This document shows positions 16,641-40,390 of a stretch of DNA of 64,000 nt, one piece after another. Source of the stretch: Mayamaea pseudoterrestris (taxonomy: Eukaryota). The stretch lies in contig BROI01000016.1 of assembly GCA_027923505.1 (NCBI GenBank), positions 496,001 to 560,000 on the forward strand, written 5' to 3'. Under the pieces are notes generated by a model. That model was given only the letters and a program-made list of their open reading frames with translations, was not told the DNA's origin and searched no databases. The translations under genes were made by a program, and so were the position numbers. Numbering within the stretch: position 1 is the first letter of the stretch; the number at the start of each line of letters is the position of its first letter.

Positions 16641-16857
16641 TCATGTACATATTGACTGCATCTGAAGGTTGTCGACGTTTCATATGCTTTGAGCTAGGTG
16701 AATCGTCAGTTACTTTTTCAAATCTAAATGATGCTGATCATTGCTAATACGACCGGTGGGTTTAACGACTTACGCGATTGGCTTGCTTTTAGCGTATGTC
16801 AAACTACGACGAAAGATCATTTATTTTCAACTGTTACAAAGATCACAATTTTAAAAA

Positions 16858-19800
16858 TTATTTACGGGTACGCTTGACACACTTTCCCAGTTTGCACCAG
16901 AAATTATTCGCGCATTGCGAGTTGCGTAAGCACTTGCCTCCGCGCGAGATAGCAGCCTTGCAGGTTCGCTGGGAAAGTGCTGGCCCGTCGCAGGTGTTAC
17001 TCGATCCGCAGCAGTCGAGTGCCTTGCGACAAGGCTGGCGGAATGTCTTACAACCCGATTTGTCCTGACTGCATGTGATGCTCAAGCCCGAATAACTCTC
17101 GCTAGCGTAGACGGTGGCATAGACAGTTGTGTCCATTGAAATGACTTGGGTCTCGCACACCTCGTTAGACATGCTAGGAGTACTGGCTTCGCAGTCGTTT
17201 CGACCTGACAATGGGTGCGCCATACCTCCCTGTCGCACGTACAAGTCCGCGTCACCATTAGTGCCTTCAATGTGACATTCCATTTTTGCACCCCGGAGTA
17301 CGTTTGCCAGTTGATAGACGCGAATGATCGAGTCTGTGCTATCGACCCCATCCTGATTTGGCAATGCGACTCCATCCGATAAACTGACTGTCGGACGCTT
17401 TTTGCCACAAACGACTTCCATGTTTTCTGGTTCGGGATCATTAGTGAGATCTCGCACAGCATACACCCTCGCATATACCTCTGTGCTGACCTCAGCCGCA
17501 TCGGATAAACATTCTGCAAAGTTGGTGTCGTAAGGAACACTTGAGGCACAAGCTAGCCTGGAATCGGTCGCGTCTGCCGGTCGTCCAAAGTAGATGCTGA
17601 GCCCTGTGTGAAGGTGCTTGCTCCCCTTCACAAAACATGACACTTGTTCGCTCGCCTCAAGAGGGACGTCCAGTGTGTAATAGTATATATACTCCACGCC
17701 AATGTCTTGGGTGAAGATGTTAGCTTCAGGTTGCACCACCCAGTTCGAGATGGCGGTCACTCGTTGTGGCTCGACCGTGCAAGTCAGAGTCACCCCTTCA
17801 AAGCCCGCGCTATAGGCAAAAAATGAGAGCCTCATGTTCGAATAATCTATCCCGCTTAAGGTCTGCATAGTGAATTCAGCAACTCCTTGATTATATCGAC
17901 CTTCGTCAATGATATCGTAGTTGTAGTCAAAAGCGGACTTGTCGTCAACAAAGCTGACCTCCACAACAGAAGGAATAACATCCGGTGCTTCAATGGAACA
18001 TTTCACGGAAGCCAGGGCTGGAATGTTGGTATACAAACAGGATAGACTGGCATCAATTTTTGCTCGTAATTCTGTCGCAGGTACTCCGTTTTGAATGATA
18101 TTCCAGGCCGAGTCAACCGATGCGCAAGAAAGCTTCAAGTTGTTGAAAGACGAGTAAGCCGAAATAATGATTGACGCAGTTGTCATGTGATCAGAAGGAC
18201 CAACTGCACATGCTTCCACCGAGCCGAAATCTTCCGTCAGGCAGGAGGGAATAGAATCGGTCGCAAAGTATGGACCATTAATTTCCATATAAAGGTCCGC
18301 ATCCCCGTTGTCGCCTTCAAGCGTGCAAGAAAGCAATTTGCCAGCAAGAAGACCCACGTAAAGAAAACTCAGTGTGTCTCCCTTTTCAGCGGACAATCCA
18401 ACTATCGGTATACCATCACTGACCACTGCAGGCCTGCATCCAACTGCGTCCCACGCCGCCTCAACGTTGGTCGCGAATGCGCCAGCATGAAGCAAGGTGC
18501 ATTCTCGAATTTCGTAGAACCCTGATGCGGGAGTCAAGCAAGCGGTATTAGCCATGTAAAAAATATTGGCAGCAGCTAGCAGAGAAGTGTCAAAGTTGGG
18601 ATGAATCGCTGGAACAACAATATCCGTCATCCCGCGCGGATGCGTGCCGCCTTGCACCATGAGAACGAATGCCAAGCTGACAATGCCAGAGTTCCAGTGC
18701 ACGCCGCCATTATCATCATCACCTTGATACCTATCCGGATAGTAATCGGTCTCGCCCTCACCAGTCCTTGTCGGGTCATTCAAATAGCGCAAAGCGTCAC
18801 CTTTCATGCCAGGTGTCCATACCTCTTCCCCAAGCAGCCACGTATTTTTGACCGATGCACCTTCTTGACGATCCATGCAGGCGCCCATAATGTCGGATAT
18901 AGCCTCATTCAAAGCTCCGCTGTCACCATAACCTATAAGTCCCGAGGTGTAATCCGTGACGCCGTGGCTGTTCAATGAAACGAATGAAGTGGTAAGGAGC
19001 GTTGTCGATATAGCTTTCAACTGACGTAAGCTTACTCACGTATACTCATGCCCCACGACATCAAGCGCACGGGAGAGTGGATTGAGCAGTTCACCGTCAC
19101 CATCTCCATACTGTAAGGCGTATCCATCCCATGCCGCATTGTTATAGTTCCTTCCAACGTGCACCTGCGAAACAATTTCAATACCTTGGTCGTCAAGAGA
19201 GTCGCGCCCAAAGTTGCGACGATAGAATTTATATGCAATTCGTGCATTGTTGTGAGCGTCATTGATAACCTTGTCGCGCGTCTTGATCACTCTGTTGCTC
19301 GTGCTGACAACCTTGCATCTGTATGTATTGAAAGAATTATTGCAATTTTCCGTGCGGAGCGCCATGGCGCCCATGACCTGCGGGCGAGTGGCGACAATGT
19401 CGCCCGTGACGACGGATGCGTAGAGTAGCGTTTTTTGGTAGAGTCCCTGCGCTGGCTGATATCCAATCATGCGCACCCACGCCTTGTGAGCGTCTCCGTG
19501 CCTGCCGTCAATGACAATCTTGGTGTCGCAATCGGTGAGCCACGTCGCAGCAGTTTGATACTTTGGATTCTCCAGAATGCCATTGAATGCCTGCTCACAG
19601 GTCACTTTTTCGTTCATATCGACGCTTCCATCCGTTACAAATTCTCCATGAATGGCGTACACTTGGTTGTCCTCATTCAAGTGCATGACAATCGCCGCGT
19701 CCACAACCTCCAAACCTTGGTAGGTTTGCTCGTACCGCAGATGTTTGTGATTTTGCTGGTCCGCCACCATTCGATTCTTGTGCTTGCCGGGACGAATGCT

Positions 19801-20174
19801 TTCGCGCCCCGTCGCTCCAGATCGTTCCTGCAAGACGGTTGTCAACGTTTCTAATGCAGCAGAAAGTAGTTGATTGGCATTCACGGATTCGCCCGAGATG
19901 GAGGGATTACTCTCATTTTCTGGTGCTTGAACAGTTCCAAGACTTCCCTGGAAAAATATGGAGCCGCTCTTTTTGGAAAGCGTCTGGGCCACGGCAACAT
20001 GGGGCGTGACAAAGGCCAACCAAGCCAGAATGCGGGGAATATTGGAGGTGCGAAACGTCCCCGCTGTCCTAGTATTTCCAAATATGACGAGCACGATGCT
20101 GGTGAGTGTTATCCATTTTGCTTGTCAGACACTTTATATCGTTCCACGGCTTGCGTTACTTACCTGGTCCTCAT
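16858..20174 (-). CDS. Secreted thermolysin-family (peptidase M4) zinc metalloprotease A, copy 1: propeptide, catalytic domain, 4 PPC-like domains, 10-Cys tail
   Basis: FTP-type propeptide (HLRYEQTYQG), NNAAWDG, YGDGDG, HEYTH (formed after splicing intron 18968-19039), GALNEAISD, GGVHWNSGI and GDADLY. Likely 11-nt first exon 20174-20164 (ATGAGGACCAG|GTAAGT), with exon 2 starting at 20098 or 20068. Confidence 0.92.
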
Positions 20175-20606
20175 GTTGTTTATGTTGTTGATGAACAAGA
20201 AAAAGTGTCGGATGGCAGCTCGATTCAATCGTGTCAAATCTGTGATTTTTTGTGTGGCCGGCTGTTTTCATGATGTAAATAGGAAAGGTTTTGCCAATTC
20301 ATGATCGGAAATGACTTTTCCGACCCATCATGCGCGCACCAAGGAAACGTCATCATGTCGTAGCAGTTTTACAAGTTGGTTGCCGTGCTCTCGAAGCCTT
20401 GGAAACGCATCATGGCCGCTCCTTTTTCGTCTTCCATCCATCGTCACGAAACGTTGAAGCTTGCCGCACACAATTCTTTTGGAAGCAACCTTGACCAATA
20501 TTGCTATCTTTTGCTCGAGACGCTCCAGTAGAGACGAGAACTCAATCAACGAGAACCAGGAGGAATCGCTGTCTGTTTTTGAATTAAAATAAAACGCAAC
20601 GCCACC

Positions 20607-22679
20607 ATGCTTCAGTACGACAATTCAGCCTTTTACTTTTTCCTGCTGAGCATGCTCAGCTTTTATTTGATTCCATGTACGTTTTCGTATTGTATTTTTG
20701 AAAGAGATGGATGGTGAAAGATGCTGCATGAGAAATATGCGCAGGCGAGATGTTCCATGCAGCGCCAAGGCAATATTGCGACGCGATGGATTGTCATCGT
20801 TTACAATCATTTGCCGCTTTTGTCTTCTCACTCGCTCATTACATGATACAATTTGATTGCAGCATGGTACGGCATTCTATCCAGAGTCTACAGAATTCTT
20901 TCGGCGAGCGACAAGGAGATTGGAGCCGTGACTCGAACGACTGCCGAACAAAAAAAGGCCGAGCAGCTCAAGAAGGAAACCAAGGGTTTGACGCAACTTT
21001 TGACGCGCAGCTTTTTAACCAATCTTGCCGTGACAGTCATTTTGACTCTAGTATTCTTGTGGCTACTATACAAGGTGACTTCGGATGAAGGTCAAGTCAA
21101 CTCGTTTGATCCATTCACCATTTTGGAGATTGACTCCGGCGCCGACTCTAAAATTATCAAAAAGGCCTACCGCCGCCTATCGCTCGTCTACCATCCCGAC
21201 AAGAATCCCGGCGATCGGGCGGCTGCCGCAAAATTCATCATGGTCAAGAAAGCGTACGAGTCACTGACGGATGAAACTGCCAAGGAGAATTGGGAAAAGT
21301 ATGGAAACCCAGACGGCAAGCAGAGTTTGGAGGTGAGCATTGGATTGCCAGCGTTTTTGCTCGATACCAACTACCGCAACTTGGTGTTAGTCGCGTATTT
21401 GATCATCATGGTGGTGGTCATTCCATTGGCAGTATGGACATACTACTCCGACTCGAGTCAGTATGGCGAAAAGGATGTCATGTACGATACCTACTCGTGG
21501 TTTCATCACGCACTTTCGGACAGTTCGCCGGTGAGGTCGCTGCCCGAGTCACTGGCCGGCGCCGCCGAGTTTCGCACGCGCAACAAGCCAACGGATGCGG
21601 GTGAGCGCAAGGAGATTGCCGATTTGATGCAAAAGGATATCAAGGCGAGCATGACCAAGCCGAAATTTAATCATCCTGTGGTTGTCAAGGGAAATTTGTT
21701 ATTGCATGCGCACTTGCTGCGCAAATCAAATTTACTCAGTCCCAAGCTACAAGACGATTTAAAGTACATGCTGCGATGCTCGAATTCATTAATTGAAGCC
21801 ATGATTTCCGTCTGCAAGCATCAAGAGTGGCTCAACACTGCAATTCAATGCATTGAGTTTGGCCAGTGCGTCGCCCAAGCCATGTGGTCCAAGGACAGTC
21901 CACTGCTGCAGCTTCCGCACTTTACACAAGAGGAAGTCAAGCACTGCGAAAATGGCAAGGTCAAGATAACATCCATCAAGCAATACAAGGAGCTGCCGGA
22001 CGACCAAAAGAAGGGAATGAATGACTTTACCGACGCGCAAAAGAGAGATGTTGCGCAGTATCTCAACATTTTCCCCGACATTACTGTTGAAACGAGAGTT
22101 TACACGGACGACGACGAAGATCCAGCCGTGTACGAGGGCGATTTGGTCACGGTGGAGGTGACTCTGACACGCAACAATCTTGCACCCGGCGAAAAGGCGG
22201 GTCTCGTGCACGCTCCATTCTTTCCGTTTCCCAAGAAGGAGTCTTGGTGGGTCATGCTTGGTCAGCTGCATGCTGGCAAGATTGTTTCGATTGAACAATT
22301 GTCCAACCCGAACCAGAAAGTCGTGCACAAGATCAAGTTCCAGGCCCCACCCAAGGGTACATATGTTTTTGATCTGGTTATCAAATCGAACGCCTACGTT
22401 GGATGCGACGCGCAGGTCAAGGTTGACATGGAGACGAAGGACGCATCTACATTACCTGAATACAAGGTGCACGCCGAAGATGCGGAGCTTGATGACGAGC
22501 CCACATTGTTTGAGGAGATGCTGAATGCGAATATCGAGCGCGACAGTGACGACGAGGATTCCGACGATGAGGACGAAGACGCAGACAATGGCCAGGCCAT
22601 GAGTGCAGCAGACAAGAAGAAGGAGCAGTTACGAAAAGCACGACAGGACGATGACGACGATGATTCGGATAGTGACTAA
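20607..22679 (+). CDS. SEC63: ER translocon subunit Sec63 (J-domain + Sec63/Brl domain), copy 1
   Basis: Exon 1 (20607-20676) reads MLQYDNSAFYFFLL; intron 20677-20862. FDPFTILEI, HPDKN, YGNPDG, IGLPAFL, HAPFFPFPKKESWW and an acidic tail. Confidence 0.95.
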
Positions 22680-23083
22680 TTAGTATGTATGTTTGCGTTT
22701 GCTTCATTCCATTCTTTCGCGCATAGTACTATAGCTTGAAACATTTGATAGAACTATGCAGCATTTACTAAAGCATAGGGTGTATGATGCGTACAAAAAC
22801 GTTCCAGCAGACTATGATCGAGACCATTCTGACTGGAGCAAAGATAATCTCACCAGCACCTATCCATTAGTGATGATTGATGCACTACAGGACGTAGGGC
22901 AGTCGATGCTTGCGCAACTTCTTCAGAATCTATGCAGTGTTGTGCTCGCCGCCGAAAGTCAACAGGCGCATCGCGCAGCTAAGGCGCACAACGCTTCATG
23001 ACGCAAGATTGCCGACAAAATTTGCCAGCAATTACTTTAATCTATTACGAAACGCATTGTCACTACAATGTTTCTCTAATAAT

Positions 23084-26000
23084 TTACAAATCTACAATGC
23101 GTCTTCTCCGCCTCCTTCGCCTTGTACGCATGACGCAAACGTTTCTCCTGCAAGTGTATCCCTGTAAGCACTGCGTCTTGCGCACGCAGCGCCCGCCGGG
23201 AGAAACAGCCTTGACGCAAACTTTGTTCGTATCCGTCGTTCCGTCGCAATTGGTGTTCGAGCCACAGCATTGTTTTATTCTCATGCACGCCGCACCAAGT
23301 GGCTTACATGAGGGAGTGCTGATTCGCGAGCACACGAGACTCAGATTTGTAAAACTTGCGTAAGTATGGATCGAAACAAAAACAGACGAGTCGGATACAA
23401 GCGCTTCCGTCGTACATGCTTCCGTAGACGACGGGCCTCCAGATACGCACGAGTATTTGTCTGCGAGTGGATGCGGAGTCGATCCAATTTGAACATACAG
23501 ATCAGCATCACCATCAGCACCGCCACTAATTGAACACGCGACTTTCTCTCCTGTGATGACCCCATCCAATCGGAATACTTGAAGGGCGGTGTCACCGCCA
23601 GCAATGCCAGAAATTCCTGTTTGGATGATTTTGTTTGTAATGGCAATAGGAGTTGGCTCTTGGCCGCAGATAATGTCCGTGCTGATGGCAGTGGACAGAG
23701 TCGAAAAAGGTTGTGTCGTCACTTGCGCGTACACTCCTGCCGATCCATCGGCCAATGAAGAAGTACACTCCTTGACTCCAGTACAGGCGAGTTCAGGCGC
23801 CATTCCCGCGTTCGGTACACTTCCGTAGTATACCTGGAGCTCGGCAACAATATTTTCGCTGGCTTTCATGACACATGTCGCTTGTTTGCCTTGGTCAATA
23901 ACTGTATCTAAGCTGTACAAATTAATGCGGTCATTTTTTCCGACTGTATCCACCTGGAAAGCAGTGTCGGTGTAATACACCCAGTTGGAAAGTGGATTTA
24001 CTTTGATTGGCTGCAACGAACATGTCAAACTCAAGCCACTAAATGCCTGACCGACAGCGTACACTCCGAAATACAAGTTTGTCGTCGCTTTCTGCGGAGA
24101 ATTGAAGATGCACAGCGCAGAACCACGAACAAACTCGCTCCCTGCAACAGAGCACGGATCATACTCGTTGATGTCGCCGTCGTCTGTCATCAACGAACCA
24201 TATAGAGTTGGTACACCGGTCTGGGTAGTGACTTTGCAGCTCACTGCGGTGAGCGGAGGAATACTGGGTAGAATGAACAAATTCGCATAGCCAGGGCTCG
24301 CCGCCAGCCCAGTCTGCGCCACACCATTCGCCAGTGGCGTCCAAGTCGACGTTTTCGTACAAGTCAACGACAGATTGGTAAAGGCGGTATACGCGTAAAC
24401 AGTGATCCAAACCTTGGTCACATCGCCTTGAAAGGAACCAACCGTGCACGCTTCGGTAGAGTATTGTCCAAGTGACGAGCAGCTGGCGCTGCGATCGTAG
24501 TTTCTAATGCTCTGCATGGTCAAATACAAATCAGCATCTCCATTGTCACCGTTAAGGCTGCACGAGACTGTCGTTCCGTATGGAACGCCGGCAATTCCAT
24601 ACTGGAGCAGCTGTCCCTTGACGGCATTAATGCCGGTGATGGGTGTGTTGGTATACAAGGTCACCAAGCCAACGGCTTGCCAGGCCGCCTCAACGGACTT
24701 TACATGATTTCCAGCATGAAGCATGGTGCACTCCCGAATTTCATAAAACCCAGACAGCGGCGTCAAACAAGCAGTGTTGGCCATGTAAAAGATTTTAGCC
24801 GCTATTATCAAGGACGTGTCAAAGTCTTGATCAATGGGAGGGACCACCACATTCGACTTGCCGCGCGGATGCTTGCCGCCTTGCACCATGAGCGTAAAGG
24901 CAAGGTTCATGATACCCGAGTTCCAATGAACACCACCGGCATCACTTGTACCCTGGTACCTGTCTGGGTACCAGTCAACGCCGGAATCCCCTTGCGTTGG
25001 GTTTGTCATGTAGCGAAAGGCATCTCCTGGAACGCTTGGCGTATATACTTTCTCGCCAATCATCCAAGTGTTGGCAATGTTTGCACCATTCTCGCGGTCC
25101 ACGCAGGCACCCATAATGTCCGAAAAGGCTTCATTCAATGCGCCCGATTCTGCTTGATACACCAAGCCACTTGTCCACTGCGTGACACCATGACTTTGTT
25201 GATGATAGATGATAGTGTGAGCGAGAAAGTATCTCCATGTGCACGTCGTGCGTATCAAAAGACCCCCGCAAGACTCACCTCAACTCGTGGCCCACAACGT
25301 CAATGCCCCGACTCAGTGGCCCCAAAACGTTGCCGTCGCCATCACCATAGGTCATACTCGTCGTATCCCAAAACGCATTATTGTAATTTGTAGAGTAGTG
25401 CACATGCGAAATCAACGTCATGCCATTGTCATCAATCGAGTCGCGACCAAAGTGTTTCTTGTAAAACTCCCACGTGCTAATCGCAAAGTTGTGCGCGTCA
25501 TTCACCACAGGGTCACTGGTGGCAAGTCTCCTGCTGCTGGTGCTCACGACGCGGCAATTGTCGGTGCGGTCCGCGTTGAGGCAATTCTCCGTCCGCAGGC
25601 TCAGCGCGCCGTGCACCTGCGGACGTACGGCGACAATATCTCCCGTCACCACGGAGGCATACAGAAACGTCTTTTGATAGGGACCTTCAATCGGCATGTA
25701 ACCAATCATGCGCTGCCATGCTTTATGGGCATCGCCGTACTGATCAAACACAATCTTGACGTCACACTCCGTCAACCAAACGGCGTCGCTGCCGTAGTTT
25801 GGATCCGTCAGCGTGTCGGCAAACGCATCCTCGCAACTCACTCGCACCTTGGTATCCACGGATCCTTCCATGACAAACTCGCCGTTGACCGCATACACCT
25901 TTCCCCGCTTATCCAAATGCATCACCATGGCAGCATCCACCACGGAAACGTTTTGATACGTTTGCTGAAACCGCACATGCTGGTGTCCCTTGACATCCTT

Positions 26001-26234
26001 GACGAGCTTGTTTTTGCGTTTCGAAACACGAAAATCTTCCCGGCCCGTGGCGCCGAGGCTGGTGCGCAGAATGCTGGCCAAGGTGGAAGTTGCCGCCGGA
26101 AGGGCGCCGTTGGCTGCAACGTTCGTGTCGGACACTTGTCCCAGCGAACCTCGCGTAAAGGTGAAGCCTCCCGTCTTGTCGGATGCGACAATGGTTGCCA
26201 ACAGTAGAATGATGCAAGGAATACGCATCGTCAT
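23084..26234 (-). CDS. Secreted thermolysin-family (M4) metalloprotease B, copy 1
   Basis: Signal peptide, HVRFQQTYQ propeptide, NNAFWD, HELSH after splicing intron 25194-25278, GALNEAFSD, GGVHWNSGI, GDADLY x2, 10-Cys tail and a poly-Arg end. Confidence 0.92.
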
Positions 26235-26266
26235 GATTGTCTTTAGTTACTCTGTTTTGTTCAACT

Positions 26267-29200
26267 TTAGTAGCTCGAGGCTCGTGACCGAGTCGCAATA
26301 TGTGAGCTATCGGATGGCAATAGAGATGCAGCAATGTGCCAATCGAATGTCGAGAACCTGGTGCGATGTCCGCAGCAGTCGAGTGCCTTGCGACAAGGCT
26401 GGCGGAATGTCTTACAACCCGATTTGTCCTGACTGCATGTGATGCTCAAGCCCGAATAACTCTCGCTAGCGTAGACGGTGGCATAGACAGTTGTGTCCAT
26501 TGAAATGACTTGGGTCTCGCACACCTCGTTAGACATGCTAGGAGTACTGGCTTCGCAGTCGTTTCGACCTGACAATGGGTGCGCCATACCTCCCTGTCGC
26601 ACGTACAAGTCCGCGTCACCATTAGTGCCTTCAATGTGACATTCCATTTTTGCACCCCGGAGTACGTTTGCCAGTTGATAGACGCGAATGATCGAGTCTG
26701 TGCTATCGACCCCATCCTGATTTGGCAATGCGACTCCATCCGATAAACTGACTGTCGGACGCTTTTTGCCACAAACGACTTCCATGTTTTCTGGTTCGGG
26801 ATCATTAGTGAGATCTCGCACAGCATACACCCTCGCATATACCTCTGTGCTGACCTCAGCCGCATCGGATAAACATTCTGCAAAGTTGGTGTCGTAAGGA
26901 ACACTTGAGGCACAAGCTAGCCTGGAATCGGTCGCGTCTGCCGGTCGTCCAAAGTAGATGCTGAGCCCTGTGTGAAGGTGCTTGCTCCCCTTCACAAAAC
27001 ATGACACTTGTTCGCTCGCCTCAAGAGGGACGTCCAGTGTGTAATAGTATATATACTCCACGCCAATGTCTTGGGTGAAGATGTTAGCTTCAGGTTGCAC
27101 CACCCAGTTCGAGATGGCGGTCACTCGTTGTGGCTCGACCGTGCAAGTCAGAGTCACCCCTTCAAAGCCCGCGCTATAGGCAAAAAATGAGAGCCTCATG
27201 TTCGAATAATCTATCCCGCTTAAGGTCTGCATAGTGAATTCAGCAACTCCTTGATTATATCGACCTTCGTCAATGATATCGTAGTTGTAGTCAAAAGCGG
27301 ACTTGTCGTCAACAAAGCTGACCTCCACAACAGAAGGAATAACATCCGGTGCTTCAATGGAACATTTCACGGAAGCCAGGGCTGGAATGTTGGTATACAA
27401 ACAGGATAGACTGGCATCAATTTTTGCTCGTAATTCTGTCGCAGGTACTCCGTTTTGAATGATATTCCAGGCCGAGTCAACCGATGCGCAAGAAAGCTTC
27501 AAGTTGTTGAAAGACGAGTAAGCCGAAATAATGATTGACGCAGTTGTCATGTGATCAGAAGGACCAACTGCACATGCTTCCACCGAGCCGAAATCTTCCG
27601 TCAGGCAGGAGGGAATAGAATCGGTCGCAAAGTATGGACCATTAATTTCCATATAAAGGTCCGCATCCCCGTTGTCGCCTTCAAGCGTGCAAGAAAGCAA
27701 TTTGCCAGCAAGAAGACCCACGTAAAGAAAACTCAGTGTGTCTCCCTTTTCAGCGGACAATCCAACTATCGGTATACCATCACTGACCACTGCAGGCCTG
27801 CATCCAACTGCGTCCCACGCCGCCTCAACGTTGGTCGCGAATGCGCCAGCATGAAGCAAGGTGCATTCTCGAATTTCGTAGAACCCTGATGCGGGAGTCA
27901 AGCAAGCGGTATTAGCCATGTAAAAAATATTGGCAGCAGCTAGCAGAGAAGTGTCAAAGTTGGGATGAATCGCTGGAACAACAATATCCGTCATCCCGCG
28001 CGGATGCGTGCCGCCTTGCACCATGAGAACGAATGCCAAGCTGACAATGCCAGAGTTCCAGTGCACGCCGCCATTATCATCATCACCTTGATACCTATCC
28101 GGATAGTAATCGGTCTCGCCCTCACCAGTCCTTGTCGGGTCATTCAAATAGCGCAAAGCGTCACCTTTCATGCCAGGTGTCCATACCTCTTCCCCAAGCA
28201 GCCACGTATTTTTGACCGATGCACCTTCTTGACGATCCATGCAGGCGCCCATAATGTCGGATATAGCCTCATTCAAAGCTCCGCTGTCACCATAACCTAT
28301 AAGTCCCGAGGTGTAATCCGTGACGCCGTGGCTGTTCAATGAAACGAATGAAGTGGTAAGGAGCGTTGTCGATATAGCTTTCAACTGACGTAAGCTTACT
28401 CACGTATACTCATGCCCCACGACATCAAGCGCACGGGAGAGTGGATTGAGCAGTTCACCGTCACCATCTCCATACTGTAAGGCGTATCCATCCCATGCCG
28501 CATTGTTATAGTTCCTTCCAACGTGCACCTGCGAAACAATTTCAATACCTTGGTCGTCAAGAGAGTCGCGCCCAAAGTTGCGACGATAGAATTTATATGC
28601 AATTCGTGCATTGTTGTGAGCGTCATTGATAACCTTGTCGCGCGTCTTGATCACTCTGTTGCTCGTGCTGACAACCTTGCATCTGTATGTATTGAAAGAA
28701 TTATTGCAATTTTCCGTGCGGAGCGCCATGGCGCCCATGACCTGCGGGCGAGTGGCGACAATGTCGCCCGTGACGACGGATGCGTAGAGTAGCGTTTTTT
28801 GGTAGAGTCCCTGCGCTGGCTGATATCCAATCATGCGCACCCACGCCTTGTGAGCGTCTCCGTGCCTGCCGTCAATGACAATCTTGGTGTCGCAATCGGT
28901 GAGCCACGTCGCAGCAGTTTGATACTTTGGATTCTCCAGAATGCCATTGAATGCCTGCTCACAGGTCACTTTTTCGTTCATATCGACGCTTCCATCCGTT
29001 ACAAATTCTCCATGAATGGCGTACACTTGGTTGTCCTCATTCAAGTGCATGACAATCGCCGCATCCACAACCTCCAAAGCTTGGTAGGTTTGCTCATACC
29101 GCAGATGTTTGTGATTTTGCTGGTCCGCCACCATTCGATTCTTGTGCTTGCCGGGACGAATGCTTTCGCGCCCCGTCGCTCCAGATCGTTCCTGCAAGAC

Positions 29201-29538
29201 GGTTGTCAACGTTTCTAATGCAGCAGAAAGTAGTTGATTGGCATTCACGGATTCGCCCGAGATGGAGGGATTACTCTCATTTTCTGGTGCTTGAACAGTT
29301 CCAAGACTTCCCTGGAAAAATATGGAGCCGCTCTTTTTGGAAAGCGTCTGGGCCACGGCAACATGGGGCGTGACAAAGGCCAACCAAGCCAGAATGCGGG
29401 GAATATTGGAGGTGCGAAACGTCCCCGCTGTCCTAGTATTTCCAAATATGACGAGCACGATGCTGGTGAGTGTTATCCATTTTGCTTGTCAGACACTTTA
29501 TATCGTTCCACGGCTTGCGTTACTTACCTGGTCCTCAT
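26267..29538 (-). CDS. M4 metalloprotease A, copy 2, C-terminally truncated/chimeric at the duplication junction
   Basis: Protein matches copy 1 except for one G>A change in the propeptide and a 33-aa novel tail after ...ALDCCG. Intron 28332-28403. Confidence 0.85.
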
Positions 29539-29970
29539 GTTGTTTATGTTGTTGATGAACAAGAAAAAGTGTCGGATGGCAGCTCGATTCAATCGTGTCA
29601 AATCTGTGATTTTTTGTGTGGCCGGCTGTTTTCATGATGTAAATAGGAAAGGTTTTGCCAATTCATGATCGGAAATGACTTTTCCGACCCATCATGCGCG
29701 CACCAAGGAAACGTCATCATGTCGTAGCAGTTTTACAAGTTGGTTGCCGTGCTCTCGAAGCCTTGGAAACGCATCATGGCCGCTCCTTTTTCGTCTTCCA
29801 TCCATCGTCACGAAACGTTGAAGCTTGCCGCACACAATTCTTTTGGAAGCAACCTTGACCAATATTGCTATCTTTTGCTCGAGACGCTCCAGTAGAGACG
29901 AGAACTCAATCAACGAGAACCAGGAGGAATCGCTGTCTGTTTTTGAATTAAAATAAAACGCAACGCCACC

Positions 29971-32043
29971 ATGCTTCAGTACGACAATTCAGCCTTTTAC
30001 TTTTTCCTGCTGAGCATGCTCAGCTTTTATTTGATTCCATGTACGTTTTCGTATTGTATTTTTGAAAGAGATGGATGGTGAAAGATGCTGCATGAGAAAT
30101 ATGCGCAGGCGAGATGTTCCATGCAGCGCCAAGGCAATATTGCGACGCGATGGATTGTCATCGTTTACAATCATTTGCCGCTTTTGTCTTCTCACTCGCT
30201 CATTACATGATACAATTTGATTGCAGCATGGTACGGCATTCTATCCAGAGTCTACAGAATTCTTTCGGCGAGCGACAAGGAGATTGGAGCCGTGACTCGA
30301 ACGACTGCCGAACAAAAAAAGGCCGAGCAGCTCAAGAAGGAAACCAAGGGTTTGACGCAACTTTTGACGCGCAGCTTTTTAACCAATCTTGCCGTGACAG
30401 TCATTTTGACTCTAGTATTCTTGTGGCTACTATACAAGGTGACTTCGGATGAAGGTCAAGTCAACTCGTTTGATCCATTCACCATTTTGGAGATTGACTC
30501 CGGCGCCGACTCTAAAATTATCAAAAAGGCCTACCGCCGCCTATCGCTCGTCTACCATCCCGACAAGAATCCCGGCGATCGGGCGGCTGCCGCAAAATTC
30601 ATCATGGTCAAGAAAGCGTACGAGTCACTGACGGATGAAACTGCCAAGGAGAATTGGGAAAAGTATGGAAACCCAGACGGCAAGCAGAGTTTGGAGGTGA
30701 GCATTGGATTGCCAGCGTTTTTGCTCGATACCAACTACCGCAACTTGGTGTTAGTCGCGTATTTGATCATCATGGTGGTGGTCATTCCATTGGCAGTATG
30801 GACATACTACTCCGACTCGAGTCAGTATGGCGAAAAGGATGTCATGTACGATACCTACTCGTGGTTTCATCACGCACTTTCGGACAGTTCGCCGGTGAGG
30901 TCGCTGCCCGAGTCACTGGCCGGCGCCGCCGAGTTTCGCACGCGCAACAAGCCAACGGATGCGGGTGAGCGCAAGGAGATTGCCGATTTGATGCAAAAGG
31001 ATATCAAGGCGAGCATGACCAAGCCGAAATTTAATCATCCTGTGGTTGTCAAGGGAAATTTGTTATTGCATGCGCACTTGCTGCGCAAATCAAATTTACT
31101 CAGTCCCAAGCTACAAGACGATTTAAAGTACATGCTGCGATGCTCGAATTCATTAATTGAAGCCATGATTTCCGTCTGCAAGCATCAAGAGTGGCTCAAC
31201 ACTGCAATTCAATGCATTGAGTTTGGCCAGTGCGTCGCCCAAGCCATGTGGTCCAAGGACAGTCCACTGCTGCAGCTTCCGCACTTTACACAAGAGGAAG
31301 TCAAGCACTGCGAAAATGGCAAGGTCAAGATAACATCCATCAAGCAATACAAGGAGCTGCCGGACGACCAAAAGAAGGGAATGAATGACTTTACCGACGC
31401 GCAAAAGAGAGATGTTGCGCAGTATCTCAACATTTTCCCCGACATTACTGTTGAAACGAGAGTTTACACGGACGACGACGAAGATCCAGCCGTGTACGAG
31501 GGCGATTTGGTCACGGTGGAGGTGACTCTGACACGCAACAATCTTGCACCCGGCGAAAAGGCGGGTCTCGTGCACGCTCCATTCTTTCCGTTTCCCAAGA
31601 AGGAGTCTTGGTGGGTCATGCTTGGTCAGCTGCATGCTGGCAAGATTGTTTCGATTGAACAATTGTCCAACCCGAACCAGAAAGTCGTGCACAAGATCAA
31701 GTTCCAGGCCCCACCCAAGGGTACATATGTTTTTGATCTGGTTATCAAATCGAACGCCTACGTTGGATGCGACGCGCAGGTCAAGGTTGACATGGAGACG
31801 AAGGACGCATCTACATTACCTGAATACAAGGTGCACGCCGAAGATGCGGAGCTTGATGACGAGCCCACATTGTTTGAGGAGATGCTGAATGCGAATATCG
31901 AGCGCGACAGTGACGACGAGGATTCCGACGATGAGGACGAAGACGCAGACAATGGCCAGGCCATGAGTGCAGCAGACAAGAAGAAGGAGCAGTTACGAAA
32001 AGCACGACAGGACGATGACGACGATGATTCGGATAGTGACTAA
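29971..32043 (+). CDS. SEC63: Sec63, copy 2
   Basis: Translation is identical to copy 1. Intron 30041-30226. Confidence 0.93.
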
Positions 32044-32447
32044 TTAGTATGTATGTTTGCGTTTGCTTCATTCCATTCTTTCGCGCATAGTACTATAGCT
32101 TGAAACATTTGATAGAACTATGCAGCATTTACTAAAGCATAGGGTGTATGATGCGTACAAAAACGTTCCAGCAGACTATGATCGAGACCATTCTGACTGG
32201 AGCAAAGATAATCTCACCAGCACCTATCCATTAGTGATGATTGATGCACTACAGGACGTAGGGCAGTCGATGCTTGCGCAACTTCTTCAGAATCTATGCA
32301 GTGTTGTGCTCGCCGCCGAAAGTCAACAGGCGCATCGCGCAGCTAAGGCGCACAACGCTTCATGACGCAAGATTGCCGACAAAATTTGCCAGCAATTACT
32401 TTAATCTATTACGAAACGCATTGTCACTACAATGTTTCTCTAATAAT

Positions 32448-35400: not shown

Positions 35401-35598
35401 TTCCCGGCCCGTGGCGCCGAGGCTGGTGCGCAGAATGCTGGCCAAGGTGGAAGTTGCCGCCGGAAGGGCGCCGTTGGCTGCAACGTTCGTGTCGGACACT
35501 TGTCCCAGCGAACCTCGCGTAAAGGTGAAGCCTCCCGTCTTGTCGGATGCGACAATGGTTGCCAACAGTAGAATGATGCAAGGAATACGCATCGTCAT
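32448..35598 (-). CDS. M4 metalloprotease B, copy 2 (retains native upstream region)
   Basis: Translation is identical to copy 1. Intron 34558-34642. Confidence 0.92.
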
Positions 35599-36167
35599 GA
35601 TTGTCTTTAGTTACTCTGTTTTGTTCAACTTTAGTAGCTCGAGGCTCGTGACCGAGTCGCAATATGTGAGCTATCGGATGGCAATAGAGATGCAGCAATG
35701 TGCCAATCGAATGTCGAGAACCTGGTGCGATGCAAGCAAAAGCGTTCCAAGCTGTCAAGCAAATCTTGCTGTCAAATATGGAGTCAATCGTTGAAAAGTC
35801 GAAACGTTCCAACGTGCTACCGTCCAAGAATCGGACTGCCAGAAGTGATTTTTCGAAACCATCCAACGCCATACGCCAAGGGCGCTCTGCCAATTCCGTT
35901 CGGTTCAACGACTCGTGTCAAAACTGTGAAGGTCATGTAAGAGGTCATTAATGACTCTGCTTAATTTTTCAGAGTCATTTGATGTACTGTTTGACATATA
36001 CCTGACGAAGGCAATGTTCCATGGAATATCAATGTTCCGGACGCCGAACGACTGTTCTTCGATGTTCGAATCGTTGGCGAGTGAGCACATGCAGTTCTCA
36101 AAACAATGATGATCACCTTGGCGCCACTGCTAGCAAAGCCTTGCATGGCTGGACATGAATCTGAACA

Positions 36168-39348: not shown

Positions 39349-40390
39349 TTAACTGCAATTCTTGGCCCAAAGGGAGTCAACTTCTGCGGCATATGCATTT
39401 TTATCACCACTCGTCTTTAGAAACTTCTTTTTGCAGGCCCCCGTCATGAGTTTCTTGACACATTTTGCCTGTTCACCGCAGCTGCAGCGAAACTTTTTGA
39501 ATCGCCTGTCCAAACAACCTTGCACGTCATATTTTGGCTGGCAAAAGCCGCCAACCTTGCTTGGATCGCCGGCCAATGGACAGCTCGTTCCTTCCAACAT
39601 GGCAATCGTCGTTGGTGTTCTACCTTCGCAGTTTTTGGCTTGCAACTGTTGGTCCAGAAAATTCAGATTCTGTTTGTACGATACTGCGTCCATGAACATG
39701 AAATCGATCTGACAGACATTCGAAAAGTCCCAACTCGACAAGTCACCGTTGAAGCTTGCCGCTGCATTAAAGGTTCCGGAGAAGCTTTTCGCGCTAGACG
39801 TGTTCCACTTGGAAAGGCTTTGCGCAAAAGCTGTGGCGCCAATGAACATGGTATCAAAGTTTTGGACTTGGCTCGTATCCCAGTCACCGATGGACGGCTG
39901 ATTGAAGCTTGCAGCGTGTCCAAACATTGCGTTGAATGATTGAGCTTTTGAAGTATCCCAAAGGAGCGGTTCATTAAAAGTCTGTGCGTCGATTGAAAGA
40001 ATGAATGGAGGATGAGCATAATGCAAACTTTTAACAAGGCAAAAAACGACGACCCTCCAAAACCGACGACCGACGACGTACCTCCAATCCGTAAAAGGTT
40101 GCATAAAAGTCAGTCACTTCTCCAGTGCACCAGGTTGAAATGCTGCTTCCATAGTACTTTTTCACTTGCTTGTAGCCTCGCGCCGCCTTTGGGAGGCTGC
40201 GACTGCTGCAAAACGTCGGGTCTTGCGAAACGTAGCAACGCACGGCCGCGTAAAGTTCACCTTCGTAGCCCTGCGGCAAACCATGCGTGTTGAAGACTGC
40301 CTGATCGACGCCACACTCTGCATTCGCCGTCGCTAACAACGACGCGACAATAAAGGTTGCGGCAAGCGAGCGATGAAGGAGACTCGGCAT
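39349..40390 (-). CDS. Secreted DUF285 / BspA-like repeat protein
   Basis: Signal peptide and YGSSISTWCT cap. ~25-aa repeats FNxxxxxWDTSxxxxFxxMFxxA. Intron 39982-40081. Cys/Lys-rich tail. Confidence 0.85.

What the first reader, a model, noticed from the sequence alone, without database searches (positions are those of the whole stretch)
16858..26234. Bacterial-type thermolysin (M4) proteases in a diatom-like alga, with a 4xPPC + 10-Cys basic-tail architecture
Seen: two divergent paralogs (~1050 and ~1020 aa), each with a signal peptide, FTP-type propeptide, full M4 catalytic signature (HExxH, NExxSD, GGVHxNSG), four PPC-like beta domains and a tail with 10 similarly spaced Cys. Known: M4 proteases with PPC domains are typical secreted enzymes of bacteria such as Vibrio and Pseudoalteromonas, where the PPC domains bind insoluble protein substrates. 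Inference: a horizontally acquired, domesticated and expanded extracellular proteolysis system for organic-N scavenging, adhesive/EPS remodelling or antagonism. The Cys-rich tail looks like an added anchoring module.
Basis: partly seen in the sequence, partly recalled or inferred. Interest (0 to 1): 0.8.

Follow-up and report, generated by a model that had tools for sequence, protein, structure and literature searches.

The report
Bacterial-origin secreted M4 proteases in diatom
A freshwater diatom carries intron-bearing genes for secreted thermolysin-type zinc proteases that it got, binding domain and cysteine-knot tail included, from bacteria, and then enlarged; an interesting but not revolutionary case of gene transfer.

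Summary
Window 16858-26234 carries two paralogous genes on the minus strand, A of 1049 aa and B of 1021 aa. Both belong to the diatom Mayamaea pseudoterrestris. Each has a signal-peptide-like start, an FTP propeptide, a complete M4 catalytic set, four PPC-type beta-sandwich domains and a tail with 10 conserved Cys.

- A GT..AG intron splits the HExxH codons at the same place in both genes.
- The stretch is unit 1 of a near-exact 9364-bp tandem repeat (17005-26368 and 26369-35732, 3 mismatches). The assembly therefore holds four M4 genes. One of them (A2) has its tail cut at the junction. I could not settle whether the repeat is real.
- A third paralog lies on another contig.
- The tail is not purely an added module.

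In a careful tree the diatom-type proteins nest inside a bacterial M4 subfamily. That subfamily already has one four-Cys PPC domain and a 6-Cys knot tail. The cassette most likely came in one piece. The diatom line then went from one to four PPC domains and from 6 to 10 Cys, giving a colipase/Dickkopf-like predicted fold.

Function is inferred: a secreted, surface-tethered zinc protease. This is a new variant of a known kind, of moderate interest.

The parts
16858..20174 (-). Gene A1, an M4 protease precursor of 1049 aa. Exons are 20174..20164 (ATG plus 8 nt), 20068..19040 and 18967..16858. Introns are 20163..20069 (95 nt) and 19039..18968 (72 nt, GT..AG, inside the HExxH codons).
   Evidence: The same splice pattern in copy A2 reproduces the public protein P0006 exactly. 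Pfam finds FTP, Peptidase_M4 and M4_C.
23084..26234 (-). Gene B1, an M4 protease precursor of 1021 aa. Exons are 26234..25279 and 25193..23084. The intron is 25278..25194 (85 nt, GT..AG), at the same codon position inside HExxH as in gene A.
   Evidence: The spliced product equals P0001 exactly. Pfam.
25875..26003 (-). FTP propeptide motif of B1 (residues 78-120).
   Evidence: PF07504, E 1.2e-13, 51.1 bits.
24668..25538 (-). Catalytic M4 domains of B1, with the intron inside. Zinc ligands are H316, H320 and E340. Catalytic residues are E317 and H408.
   Evidence: Sequence match to thermolysin 5a3y, E 6.4e-59.
24380..24661 (-). B1 PPC-type domain 1, canonical, with the GDADLY motif and four Cys.
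   Evidence: hhalign 99.6%, E 6.9e-25 against the bacterial PPC profile. Pfam PPC reaches only 14.3 bits. Fold matches.
24050..24379 (-). B1 PPC-type domain 2, degenerate, with no GDADLY motif.
   Evidence: hhalign 96.7%, E 3.6e-10. No Pfam hit. Most fold matches span model residues 74-219.
23705..24049 (-). B1 PPC-type domain 3, the most divergent.
   Evidence: hhalign 95.1%, E 3.3e-8 over 81 columns. No Pfam PPC hit. Its fold match is not clear on its own.
23315..23704 (-). B1 PPC-type domain 4, canonical, with GDADLY.
   Evidence: hhalign 99.8%, E 6.8e-29. VIA match to the C-terminal 100 residues (PPC domain) of the Vibrio vulnificus M4 protease vEP, 2luw: Z 9.8, 26% identity, model residues 337-446.
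23087..23314 (-). B1 tail of 10 Cys in two lobes, ending RTRRRRRRRRIVDL.
   Evidence: Ten invariant Cys. Pfam EB 28.6 bits, cut-off 24.3; Dickkopf_N 20.9 bits, below cut-off. AlphaFold pLDDT 87.8. Best fold matches are Dkk4, Dkk1 and colipase at Z 4.7-5.0.
16861..17070 (-). A1 tail with the same 10-Cys pattern, ending KRTRK.
17005..26368 (.). Tandem repeat unit 1 (9364 bp). It holds most of A1, the Sec63/DnaJ gene and B1.
   Evidence: It is identical to 26369-35732 except at 19699, 19715 and 19732.
26369..35732 (.). Tandem repeat unit 2. The junction 26368|26369 lies inside the tail-coding part of gene A.
26267..29538 (-). Gene A2, a copy of A whose tail is cut at the repeat junction. It is 1034 aa long and keeps 4 of the 10 tail Cys. 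It then reads 33 unrelated residues to a stop at 26267.
   Evidence: It equals the public protein P0006 (MPSEU_000762900) exactly.
32448..35598 (-). Gene B2, whose product is identical to that of B1.
20558..22679 (+). Sec63/DnaJ gene carried inside the repeat unit as a bystander. A second copy has its main ORF at 30217-32043. An intron at 20677-20862 is shown by a spliced contig.
   Evidence: Pfam Sec63 and DnaJ. A contig of run X4 skips 186 nt with GT..AG ends.

Best explanation
These are nuclear diatom genes for secreted zinc metalloendopeptidase precursors of the thermolysin family (M4). They descend from one bacterial gene.

**Origin.** The donor belonged to a bacterial M4 subfamily. Its members carry, behind the catalytic domain, one PPC beta-sandwich domain with four Cys and a C-terminal 6-Cys knot. 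The whole cassette was most likely transferred in one piece to an ancestor of diatoms.

**Changes in the diatom line.**
- The gene gained introns. The Mayamaea paralogs A and B share one inside HExxH.
- The PPC domain multiplied from one to four. The two inner copies lost the GDADLY motif.
- The knot grew into a two-lobed 10-Cys module with a colipase/Dickkopf-like predicted shape.
- In Mayamaea a strongly basic end was added.

**Likely working (inferred).**
- The signal peptide takes the precursor into the secretory path.
- The FTP propeptide keeps the enzyme folded and inactive until it is cut off.
- The mature enzyme cleaves extracellular proteins with the usual His-Glu-His/Glu zinc site.
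- The PPC array and the basic Cys-rich tail hold it on an insoluble or charged surface rather than letting it diffuse away. That surface could be protein substrate, extracellular polymer or the silica wall.

**Shown.** Gene structure, family membership, intact catalytic residues, domain homologies, and nesting among bacterial sequences.

**Inferred.** Secretion, activation, retention of the C-terminal modules, what they bind, and the biological use.
For: **Family and active site.**
- Pfam M4, M4_C and FTP pass far above their cut-offs in both genes.
- The zinc and catalytic residues are invariant in a 14-sequence alignment.
- The sequence matches thermolysin at E 6.4e-59.

**Eukaryotic gene, not contamination.**
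- Both genes have GT..AG introns that must be removed to restore HExxH.
- The products are identical to public gene models on a 733-kb contig.
- Neighbours are Sec63/DnaJ, PI4-kinase and LRR genes.
- GC3 is 0.537 and 0.574, within the neighbours' range of 0.536-0.664.

**Bacterial origin.**
- The N-terminal exon is 40-43% identical over 92-99% of its length to bacterial proteins of 600-680 aa. One of them is from Shewanella psychropiezotolerans.
- A FastTree run of 275 rows gives a 74-row clade (support 100) of diatom-type rows plus this bacterial subfamily.
- The careful IQ-TREE run gives a 40-row clade at 100/100. The 10 diatom-type rows plus P0030 form a group at 92/96. That group lies inside nodes of 28 rows (95/96) and 32 rows (94/94).
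- Named bacterial rows stand at the base of the 40-row clade (L001 Acidobacteriota MAG, L006) and within it (P0140 Shewanella, P0020 Caldilineaceae MAG, P0148 gammaproteobacterial MAG).
- A single diatom-type clade is not rejected (AU p 0.417).

**Transfer in one piece.**
- The bacterial relatives share the four-Cys PPC pattern and a 6-Cys tail.
- hhalign of D1 to D4 against their PPC profile gives 99.6, 96.7, 95.1 and 99.8%. Tail against tail gives 86%.
- P0163 passes Pfam PPC (62.3 bits) and Toxin_12 (24.2 bits, cut-off 21).

**Folds.**
- The C-terminal model has pLDDT 89.1 and pTM 0.74.
- Best structural matches: ColG CBD Z 11.9, ColH CBD Z 11.4, a PPC domain Z 10.8, vEP C-ter100 Z 9.8.
- The tail model has pLDDT 87.8. 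Its nearest structures are Dkk4, Dkk1, colipase and MIT1.

**The architecture recurs.** Six unnamed proteins are collinear over the four domains and the tail. The library search of 1.84 billion representatives, run with B's 525 C-terminal residues, gave 94 proteins at E <= 1e-10.

**Weak sign of transcription.** Run X4, whose kind is not on record, holds a contig spliced across a GT..AG stretch of the neighbouring gene. It also holds contigs on exon 2 of both M4 genes.
Against: - No activity, secretion or localisation data exist here.
- Signal peptides were judged by eye.
- No contig bridged either M4 intron, so splicing rests on the reading frames and on the public gene models.
Some (P0030, P0130, P0152, P0157) have eukaryote-looking N-termini, so the depth of nesting among true bacteria is less sure than the support values suggest.
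- The tree is rooted on other bacterial M4 rows by choice. No root was inferred.
- In many bacterial M4 enzymes the PPC domain is removed after secretion (recalled knowledge). A tethering role is therefore not a given.
- Fold matches of the tail are weak: Foldseek E 0.025 at best, Z about 5.
- The idea that lobe 2 is a repeat of lobe 1 has only weak support: hhalign 19%, and 57% against the bacterial tail.
- The basic end is not conserved in relatives.
Confidence: 0.7

Rival explanations
1. The 9364-bp tandem repeat is an assembly artefact. An example would be two alleles or reads laid head to tail and then polished alike. The genome then has only one A and one B gene here, and the tail-less A2 does not exist.
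For: - The two units differ at only 3 of 9364 positions.
- Contigs of public runs differ from the window by about 1%, for example 15 of 1349 letters.
- The three letters by which unit 2 differs (A, G, A at 19699, 19715, 19732) are exactly the other-allele letters seen in runs X1 and X2.
- None of the listed contig pieces bridges 26368|26369.
- In X3 a contig reaching 26368 goes on with CAAGCAAA, the sequence that follows unit 2.
Against: - The junction is a clean break inside a coding region.
- 143 contig pieces were not shown, so a bridging piece cannot be excluded.
- Contigs built from short words break at repeat borders anyway.
- Depth figures are per contig and gave no consistent flank-to-unit ratio across X1 to X3.
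- The continuation seen in X3 is expected whether or not the repeat is real.
Confidence: 0.45
2. The PPC array and the Cys-rich tail are not anchors of the working enzyme. They would be secretion, folding or latency aids that are cut off during maturation, as is described for PPC domains of many bacterial pre-peptidases. The active species would then be a free ~35-kDa protease.
For: The family name itself ('pre-peptidase C-terminal') reflects removal after secretion in bacteria (recalled knowledge; Pfam description). Relatives vary freely in what follows the catalytic domain: 1 to 4 PPC domains, PT-rich linkers and other Cys modules. That variation fits an accessory part.
Against: - Four domains and the ten Cys are kept collinear in 8 of 8 aligned proteins at only about 30-37% identity. 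This argues for selection on the mature structure.
- The nearest structures are binding modules: collagen-binding domains and vEP C-ter100.
- The same PPC type is joined to LRR, WSC and subtilase proteins.
Confidence: 0.3
3. The genes are an old eukaryotic or stramenopile inheritance rather than a transfer from bacteria. The bacterial look-alikes would have received the gene from eukaryotes.
For: Disulfide-rich knots are commoner in eukaryotic secreted proteins (recalled). Some unnamed rows next to the diatom group look eukaryotic. The root was not inferred.
Against: - With the 25 other bacterial M4 rows as outgroup, the named bacterial rows L006 and L001 branch first in the 40-row clade. The diatom-type rows are derived within it.
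- M4 relatives were found in 601 of 609 pattern-matched stretches of bacterial genomes.
- The only named eukaryotic hits in two searches were three diatom species.
- Intron positions differ between lineages. Mayamaea has one inside HExxH. P0016/P0017 show an intron-like insert about 15 codons upstream. L113-L115 show a frame break about 10 codons downstream. This fits intron gain after arrival.
Confidence: 0.05
4. The stretch is bacterial contamination or a mis-join in the assembly.
For: The best non-diatom matches are all bacterial.
Against: - Both genes need GT..AG introns removed to give an open frame and the HExxH motif.
- They sit between eukaryotic genes on a 733-kb contig.
- Base composition is flat across the region.
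- GC3 is like that of the neighbours.
Confidence: 0.01

Closest known systems
Bacterial M4 subfamily with one four-Cys PPC domain and a C-terminal 6-Cys knot. Examples are P0140 of Shewanella psychropiezotolerans, P0020 of a Caldilineaceae MAG, P0148 of a gammaproteobacterial MAG and P0163. L001 of an Acidobacteriota MAG has the knot but no PPC domain. The subfamily is uncharacterised as far as I could see.
   Same: - FTP propeptide, M4 catalytic domain, a PPC domain with the same four-Cys pattern, and a knot tail.
- 40-43% identity over the N-terminal exon.
- One 100/100 clade in the tree.
   Different: - One PPC domain instead of four.
- 6 Cys instead of 10.
- No introns.
- 600-680 aa against 1021-1049 aa.
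- No basic end.
Vibriolysin-type M4 proteases with a C-terminal PPC domain, such as Vibrio vulnificus vEP (C-ter100, PDB 2luw) and MCP-02 (PDB 3nqx).
   Same: The order is pre-pro-M4-PPC. Domain 4 aligns to vEP C-ter100 at Z 9.8, rmsd 2.7, 101 residues and 26% identity. MCP-02 matches by sequence at E 2.7e-29.
   Different: They fall in the other part of the tree, with the Pseudomonadota rows. Their PPC domain has two Cys, there is no knot tail, and they are bacterial.
Thermolysin (Bacillus, PDB 5a3y, 1kei).
   Same: The catalytic domain matches at E 6.4e-59. The HExxH, NExxSD and GGVHxNSG motifs align.
   Different: No PPC domains and no Cys-rich tail.
Collagen-binding domains of clostridial collagenases ColG and ColH (PDB 1nqd, 3jqw) and the PPC domain of a Bacillus anthracis collagenase (5sv5).
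   Same: They give the best fold matches to the PPC-type domains: Z 11.9, 11.4 and 10.8 at rmsd 2.0-2.7.
   Different: Sequence identity is 7-12%. They are attached to M9 collagenases, and no collagen-binding residues were tested here.
Colipase / Dickkopf / MIT1-Bv8 (AVIT) 10-Cys fold, and single inhibitor-cystine-knot peptides.
   Same: - Ten Cys in two lobes.
- Best whole-tail matches are Dkk4 (Foldseek E 0.025, VIA Z 5.0), Dkk1 (Z 4.9) and colipase (Z 4.7).
- The first lobe alone matches knot toxins at rmsd 1-2.6 over about 30 residues.
- Pfam EB passes for B's tail. Dickkopf_N falls just under its cut-off.
   Different: The scores are weak and no disulfide map exists. This tail is a C-terminal module of a protease rather than a free cofactor or ligand. 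Descent from a bacterial single knot would make the likeness convergent.
Diatom Trailins, adhesive-trail proteins whose Choice-of-Anchor-A domain came from bacteria by gene transfer (bioRxiv 10.1101/2023.03.06.531300; I saw the abstract and passages).
   Same: A bacterial extracellular domain was taken up by diatoms and built into secreted, modular, Cys- or PT-rich proteins.
   Different: Different domain and no enzyme. The terms protease, peptidase, metalloprotease and PPC have 0 occurrences in that paper's main text.

Membership tests
Peptidase family M4 (thermolysin family; Pfam PF01447 + PF02868) | Both Pfam catalytic-domain models pass their gathering scores. | tested here: met
   Peptidase_M4: 95.6 bits (A) and 100.2 bits (B), cut-off 22.4. 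M4_C: 113.1 and 126.6 bits, cut-off 24.4.
Peptidase family M4 (thermolysin family; Pfam PF01447 + PF02868) | The HExxH zinc motif, with a third ligand Glu in NExxSD about 20 residues on. | tested here: met
   HEYTH (A) and HELSH (B) appear after splicing. H316, E317, H320, E340 and D344 are invariant in 14 of 14 sequences.
Peptidase family M4 (thermolysin family; Pfam PF01447 + PF02868) | The catalytic His of the GGVHxNSG stretch (His231 of thermolysin; that numbering is recalled). | tested here: met
   H408 is invariant. It aligns to GGVHINSG of thermolysin.
Peptidase family M4 (thermolysin family; Pfam PF01447 + PF02868) | Zinc-dependent endopeptidase activity. | not testable with these tools
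   This needs an enzyme assay.
FTP propeptide (PF07504) | The Pfam model passes its gathering score upstream of the catalytic domain. | tested here: met
   42.3 bits (A) and 51.1 bits (B), cut-off 21.
PPC, bacterial pre-peptidase C-terminal domain (PF04151) | The Pfam model passes its gathering score. | tested here: not met
   Best scores are 21.6 bits (whole exon 2 of B), 14.3 bits (D1) and 16 bits (D4), cut-off 25.9. D2 and D3 have no hit.
PPC, bacterial pre-peptidase C-terminal domain (PF04151) | Profile-level homology to domains that do pass the Pfam model. | tested here: met
   hhalign of D1 to D4 against the PPC profile of 25 bacterial relatives gives 99.6, 96.7, 95.1 and 99.8%. One of those relatives, P0163, passes Pfam PPC at 62.3 bits; only that one was scanned. 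The diatom-type relative P0013 passes at 47 bits.
PPC, bacterial pre-peptidase C-terminal domain (PF04151) | A beta-sandwich fold like solved PPC and collagen-binding domains. | tested here: met
   1nqd Z 11.9, 3jqw Z 11.4, 5sv5 Z 10.8, 2luw Z 9.8. The matches cover D1, D2 and D4. D3 has no clear match of its own and is inconclusive.
EB module (PF01683) / Dickkopf_N (PF04706) / colipase-type 10-Cys fold | A Pfam model passes its gathering score. | tested here: inconclusive
   B's tail alone scores EB 28.6 bits (cut-off 24.3), but the whole of exon 2 scores 23.4. A's tail scores EB 17.7. Dickkopf_N scores 20.9 and 19.5, cut-off 25.
EB module (PF01683) / Dickkopf_N (PF04706) / colipase-type 10-Cys fold | A two-lobed fold with five disulfides. 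| tested here: inconclusive
   Ten invariant Cys. The model has pLDDT 87.8. The best matches are Dkk4, Dkk1 and colipase, but only at Z 4.7-5.0 and Foldseek E 0.025. Disulfide pairing was not determined.
Inhibitor cystine knot (Pfam Toxin_12, PF07740) | The Pfam model passes its gathering score. | tested here: not met
   B's tail scores 8.2 bits, cut-off 21. The bacterial relative P0163 does pass, at 24.2 bits.
Gene acquired from bacteria by horizontal transfer | The eukaryotic sequences nest within bacterial ones in a rooted tree, and the gene is integrated in the host genome. | tested here: met
   Nesting under outgroup rooting is shown. The caveats are unnamed rows and a chosen root. Integration is shown by the introns, the neighbours and the composition.

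The most novel reading that the evidence does not exclude
A bacterial protease cassette (M4 + PPC + single cystine knot) entered an early diatom and became a source of parts for the diatom cell surface. Its PPC domain multiplied in place. It was also shuffled onto other secreted proteins: a subtilase in Cyclostephanos, plus LRR and WSC proteins. Its 6-Cys knot doubled and lost one disulfide, giving a 10-Cys module that converges on the colipase/Dickkopf fold. In Mayamaea an eight-arginine end pins the enzyme to the negatively charged silica wall or to extracellular polymers. The diatom would then carry a wall-bound protease for trimming its own adhesive or wall proteins, or for attacking attached microbes.
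Probability: 0.15. Interest if true: 0.65.

Novelty: new variant of a known kind. Interest (0 to 1): 0.45.

Why it matters
Extracellular proteolysis by diatoms is poorly tied to genes. This family gives concrete candidates for protein-nitrogen use, for turnover of adhesive and wall proteins, and for interactions with bacteria in biofilms.

As evolution, it is a clean example of a multi-domain bacterial gene arriving in a eukaryote in one piece. It then gained introns, multiplied one domain and remodelled a small disulfide knot. The same PPC type has also spread to other diatom surface proteins.

It also flags two practical points for users of this genome. The public name 'subtilisin-like protein' for gene B is wrong, because no subtilase domain is present. 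The 9.4-kb tandem repeat, with its truncated gene copy, needs checking before these genes are counted.

Tried and rejected
**Genome and earlier findings.**
- No whole genome is held for this window.
- Earlier findings of the scan: nothing by place or by sequence.

**Sequencing runs.**
- No RNA holder is listed among the public runs.
- No contig of the four runs laid was listed as joining across either M4 intron.
- Parts of both genes have no cover in X4. That says nothing either way.
- No listed piece bridged 26368|26369, but 143 pieces were not shown.
- Depth ratios between flank and unit were inconsistent between runs, so the copy number is left open.

**Fold searches.** Foldseek on the whole 525-residue model gave only generic multi-domain beta-sandwich hits: cubilin, SIDT1, neuropilin, reelin, HA70. 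The alignment-based wide search was needed to see PPC and collagen-binding domains.

**Metagenome scans.**
It brought 37 loci, mostly bacterial-looking single-frame M4 genes and none of the four-PPC type.
- The organisms behind the unnamed relatives therefore stay unknown. Cluster look-up named only one of ten, P0255 of Cyclostephanos tholiformis.

**Internal repeat in the tail.** hhalign of lobe 1 against lobe 2 gave only 19%, E 0.0012. The idea is kept as a hypothesis, not a result.

**Literature.**
- 'diatom + thermolysin + horizontal gene transfer': 3 papers, none relevant by title or abstract.
- 'diatom + Peptidase_M4': 2 papers. The only match in one is Peptidase_M41.
- 'diatom + PPC domain': 3 papers, none relevant.
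- The Mayamaea genome paper has no occurrence of protease, peptidase, thermolysin or subtilisin in its main text. [quoted passage not shown]
- The Seminavis genome paper mentions only calpain and CAAX proteases in the passages found.
- The diatom HGT survey preprint has none of the six terms in its main text.

**Not run.** A second AU test, of whether the bacterial subfamily can be held as one clade, for reasons of time.

Full report
**What is in the sequence**

- Gene A1 has three exons: 20174..20164, 20068..19040 and 18967..16858. It encodes 1049 aa.
- Gene B1 has two exons: 26234..25279 and 25193..23084. It encodes 1021 aa.
- In both genes a short GT..AG intron (72 nt and 85 nt) interrupts the HExxH codons at the same position. 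The zinc motif exists only after splicing.
- Gene A has a further 95-nt intron after an 11-nt first exon.
- My spliced B equals the public protein P0001 of Mayamaea pseudoterrestris exactly. P0001 lies on a 733,383-bp contig.
- The same splice pattern applied to the second copy of A equals the public protein P0006 exactly.

**The domains**

*Pfam on the exons.*
- FTP: 42.3 and 51.1 bits, cut-off 21.
- Peptidase_M4: 95.6 and 100.2 bits, cut-off 22.4.
- Peptidase_M4_C: 113.1 and 126.6 bits, cut-off 24.4.

*Catalytic residues.* The zinc ligands and catalytic residues (H316, E317, H320, E340, D344 and H408 in B numbering) are invariant in a 14-sequence alignment. They line up with thermolysin at E 6.4e-59.

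*The four domains behind the catalytic part.*
- Pfam PPC does not pass them. Scores are 14.3 bits for domain 1, 16 bits for domain 4 and nothing for domains 2 and 3, against a cut-off of 25.9.
- Profile-profile comparison says otherwise. I built profiles from 8 collinear proteins and compared them with the PPC domain of 25 bacterial relatives. Probabilities were 99.6, 96.7, 95.1 and 99.8%.
- An AlphaFold model of the last 525 residues of B has mean pLDDT 89.1 and pTM 0.74.
- Its best structural matches are the collagen-binding domains of ColG (Z 11.9) and ColH (Z 11.4), a collagenase PPC domain (Z 10.8), and the PPC domain of the Vibrio vulnificus M4 protease vEP (Z 9.8, 26% identity, on domain 4).
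- 'Four PPC-like domains' is therefore right. The outer two are canonical with a GDADLY motif. The inner two are degenerate.

*The tail.* It has ten Cys, invariant in 11 of 11 aligned tails.

*Signal peptides.* They look ordinary by eye. No predictor was run.

- The stretch 17005-26368 is repeated head to tail at 26369-35732, with 3 mismatches in 9364 bases.
- The assembly therefore holds A1, B1, A2 and B2, plus two copies of a Sec63/DnaJ gene lying between them.
- The junction falls inside the tail-coding part of gene A. A2 keeps only 4 of the 10 tail Cys and then reads 33 unrelated residues.
- A third paralog (P0008, 802 aa, with two PPC-type domains and the tail) lies on another contig.

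**Is the repeat real?**

I could not settle it.

- Contigs of four public runs differ from the window by about 1%, so a second allele exists.
- The three letters by which unit 2 differs from unit 1 are exactly the other-allele letters at those places.
- None of the listed contig pieces bridges the junction, but 143 pieces were not shown.
- One contig reaching 26368 continues with the sequence that follows unit 2. That is expected either way.
- Depth ratios were inconsistent between runs.
- I put the repeat being an artefact at about 45%.

**Where the genes came from**

*Similarity searches.*
- The N-terminal exon of B is 40-43% identical over 92-99% of its length to bacterial-size proteins of 600-680 aa. 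One of them is from Shewanella psychropiezotolerans, on a 6.4-Mb contig.
- Named eukaryotic hits in two searches were only diatoms: Mayamaea, Cyclostephanos tholiformis and Seminavis robusta.
- A scan of bacterial and archaeal genomes found M4 relatives in 601 of 609 pattern-matched stretches. I kept the best 80.

*Trees.*
- A FastTree run of 275 rows gave a 74-row clade (support 100). It joins all diatom-type rows with one bacterial subfamily.
- A careful IQ-TREE run (LG+C20+F+G4, 65 rows, 405 columns) gave a 40-row clade at 100/100 against 25 other bacterial M4 rows.
- Inside that clade the 10 diatom-type rows and the unnamed P0030 form a group at 92/96. The group is nested within nodes at 95/96 and 94/94.
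- Named bacterial rows sit both at the base and among its neighbours.
- A single clade of the ten diatom-type rows is not rejected (AU p 0.417).
- A and B are sisters (97/81), and P0008 is next (100/99).

*Caveats.*
- Most rows of the 'bacterial' subfamily carry no name. A few look eukaryotic at their N-termini.
- The root is my choice of outgroup.

*Integration in the host genome.* Intron positions differ between lineages. GC3 equals that of neighbouring genes. Both fit an old, well-settled transfer.

**The tail is mostly inherited**

- The bacterial subfamily has a distinctive build: one PPC domain with four Cys, where ordinary PPC domains of other M4 enzymes have two, followed by a C-terminal 6-Cys pattern C-x6-8-C-x5-CC-x3-C-x8-9-C.
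- A tail of this kind occurs in 45 of the 231 proteins fetched at that point, of bacterial and of diatom type.
- In P0163 the tail passes Pfam Toxin_12, a cystine-knot family, at 24.2 bits against a cut-off of 21.
- The diatom tail's first six Cys have the same spacing and align to the bacterial tail (hhalign 86%, E 4.8e-6).
- The cassette M4 + PPC + knot thus most likely came in one piece.

*The second lobe.*
- Relative P0015 has two full 6-Cys units.
- Compared with it, the Mayamaea second lobe lacks just the first and fourth Cys of a knot. Those two would pair with each other in a standard knot (recalled pairing).
- This suggests a doubled knot that lost one disulfide.
- Direct profile support is weak: 19% for lobe 1 against lobe 2, and 57% for lobe 2 against the bacterial tail.

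*Fold of the whole tail.*
- The model (pLDDT 87.8) is nearest to Dickkopf, colipase and MIT1/Bv8, which are 10-Cys two-lobed proteins.
- The scores are low: Foldseek E 0.025, Z 4.7-5.0.
- Pfam EB passes for B's tail taken alone (28.6 bits, cut-off 24.3) but not for A's tail.

**How widespread it is**

- I searched 1.84 billion representative proteins with the 525 C-terminal residues of B.
- 339 proteins had E <= 0.001, 94 had E <= 1e-10 and 21 had E <= 1e-30.
- Six representatives are collinear over most or all of the four domains and the tail.
- Of 20 hits scanned with Pfam, nine have M4_C. Others join the PPC type to LRR repeats, a WSC domain or a subtilase. One protein of 1600 aa matches in 13 stretches.
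- The subtilase is from the diatom Cyclostephanos tholiformis.
- The architecture is therefore rare but not unique to Mayamaea. The PPC type has spread to other surface proteins.

**How it probably works**

*Shown.* An intact M4 active site behind a propeptide, in a gene with a secretory-looking start.

*Inferred from what is known of the family.*
- Secretion as an inactive precursor.
- Autocatalytic removal of the FTP propeptide.
- Zinc-dependent cleavage of extracellular proteins.

*Inferred from the nearest structures, which are binding modules, and from conservation of the array at about 30-37% identity.* The PPC domains and tail hold the enzyme on an insoluble or charged surface.

*The basic end.*
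- The last 76 residues have 16 K+R (A) and 19 K+R (B) against 3 D+E. B ends in eight Arg.
- Binding to silica or acidic polymers is a reasonable guess.
- This end is not conserved in relatives.

*Biological use.* Nitrogen scavenging, trimming of the cell's own adhesive or wall proteins, or action against attached microbes cannot be told apart here.

*Transcription.* The only hint is weak. Run X4, whose kind is not on record, has a contig spliced across a GT..AG stretch of the Sec63 gene. It also has contigs on exon 2 of both M4 genes.

**Is it known?**

- The proteins are in public databases under poor names. B is called 'subtilisin-like protein' although it has no subtilase domain.
- The Seminavis homolog is called 'Extracellular elastase'.
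- My searches found no paper describing M4 proteases or PPC domains in diatoms.
- The Mayamaea genome paper does not mention them.
- The main text of the diatom HGT survey preprint has none of the six terms searched. Its supplementary lists, which I could not open, may include them.
- The nearest described parallel in diatoms is the Trailin family, whose CAA domain came from bacteria.

**Verdict**

- The HGT reading is supported.
- The 'added tail' reading is corrected.
- Function is untested.
- This is a new variant of a known kind, of moderate interest (0.45).

Noticed in passing
window 13773-16640 (+): An ORF of 955 aa lies just downstream of gene A1 and has no Pfam family at E <= 0.01. It has a Ser/Thr/Asp-rich start, a hydrophobic stretch, and then two long Cys-rich regions that resemble each other.
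   Followed up: no
window 39349-40104 (-): A gene with two DUF285 stretches ('Mycoplasma protein of unknown function', E 6.9e-34) and a Cys-rich end. It is another family of bacterial flavour in this diatom.
   Followed up: no
window 20677-20862 and 20689-20842: Run X4 has a contig that skips 186 nt with GT..AG ends at the 5' end of the Sec63/DnaJ gene, which is an intron. Runs X1 to X3 instead show a 152-nt skip with TT..TA ends at 20689->20842. That is probably a length difference between alleles.
   Followed up: partly
window 16600-26430: Contigs of all four public runs differ from the window at about 1% of positions. One example is 15 letters in a 1349-nt piece at full depth. The assembly therefore shows one of two alleles, or a mosaic.
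   Followed up: partly
protein P0001 (gene B, window 23084-26234): The public name is 'subtilisin-like protein', but the protein carries only M4, M4_C and FTP Pfam domains. The name may have come from PPC-bearing subtilases such as P0255.
   Followed up: partly
protein P0232 (unnamed, 1600 aa, contig of 13,002 bp): This protein matches the PPC-type region in 13 separate stretches and has no other Pfam family. It appears to be a pure PPC array.
   Followed up: no
loci L113, L114, L115 (L115:6046-7108; contig of 70,691 bp): These metagenomic M4 genes are 38-42% identical to B. They have a frame change and a gap of about 95 nt after the residue aligned to B 329. That looks like an intron at a different place from the Mayamaea one.
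   Followed up: no
proteins P0011, P0012, P0014, P0069, P0176, P0013: These diatom-type relatives replace some or all PPC domains with long Pro/Thr/Lys/Arg-rich linkers (APTKRPTR-type) and other Cys-rich ends. The part behind the catalytic domain is highly modular in this family.
   Followed up: no
locus L001 (Acidobacteriota MAG): This bacterial member of the sister subfamily has the 6-Cys knot joined directly to the catalytic domain with no PPC domain between. The knot and the PPC domain are therefore separable modules in bacteria too.
   Followed up: no
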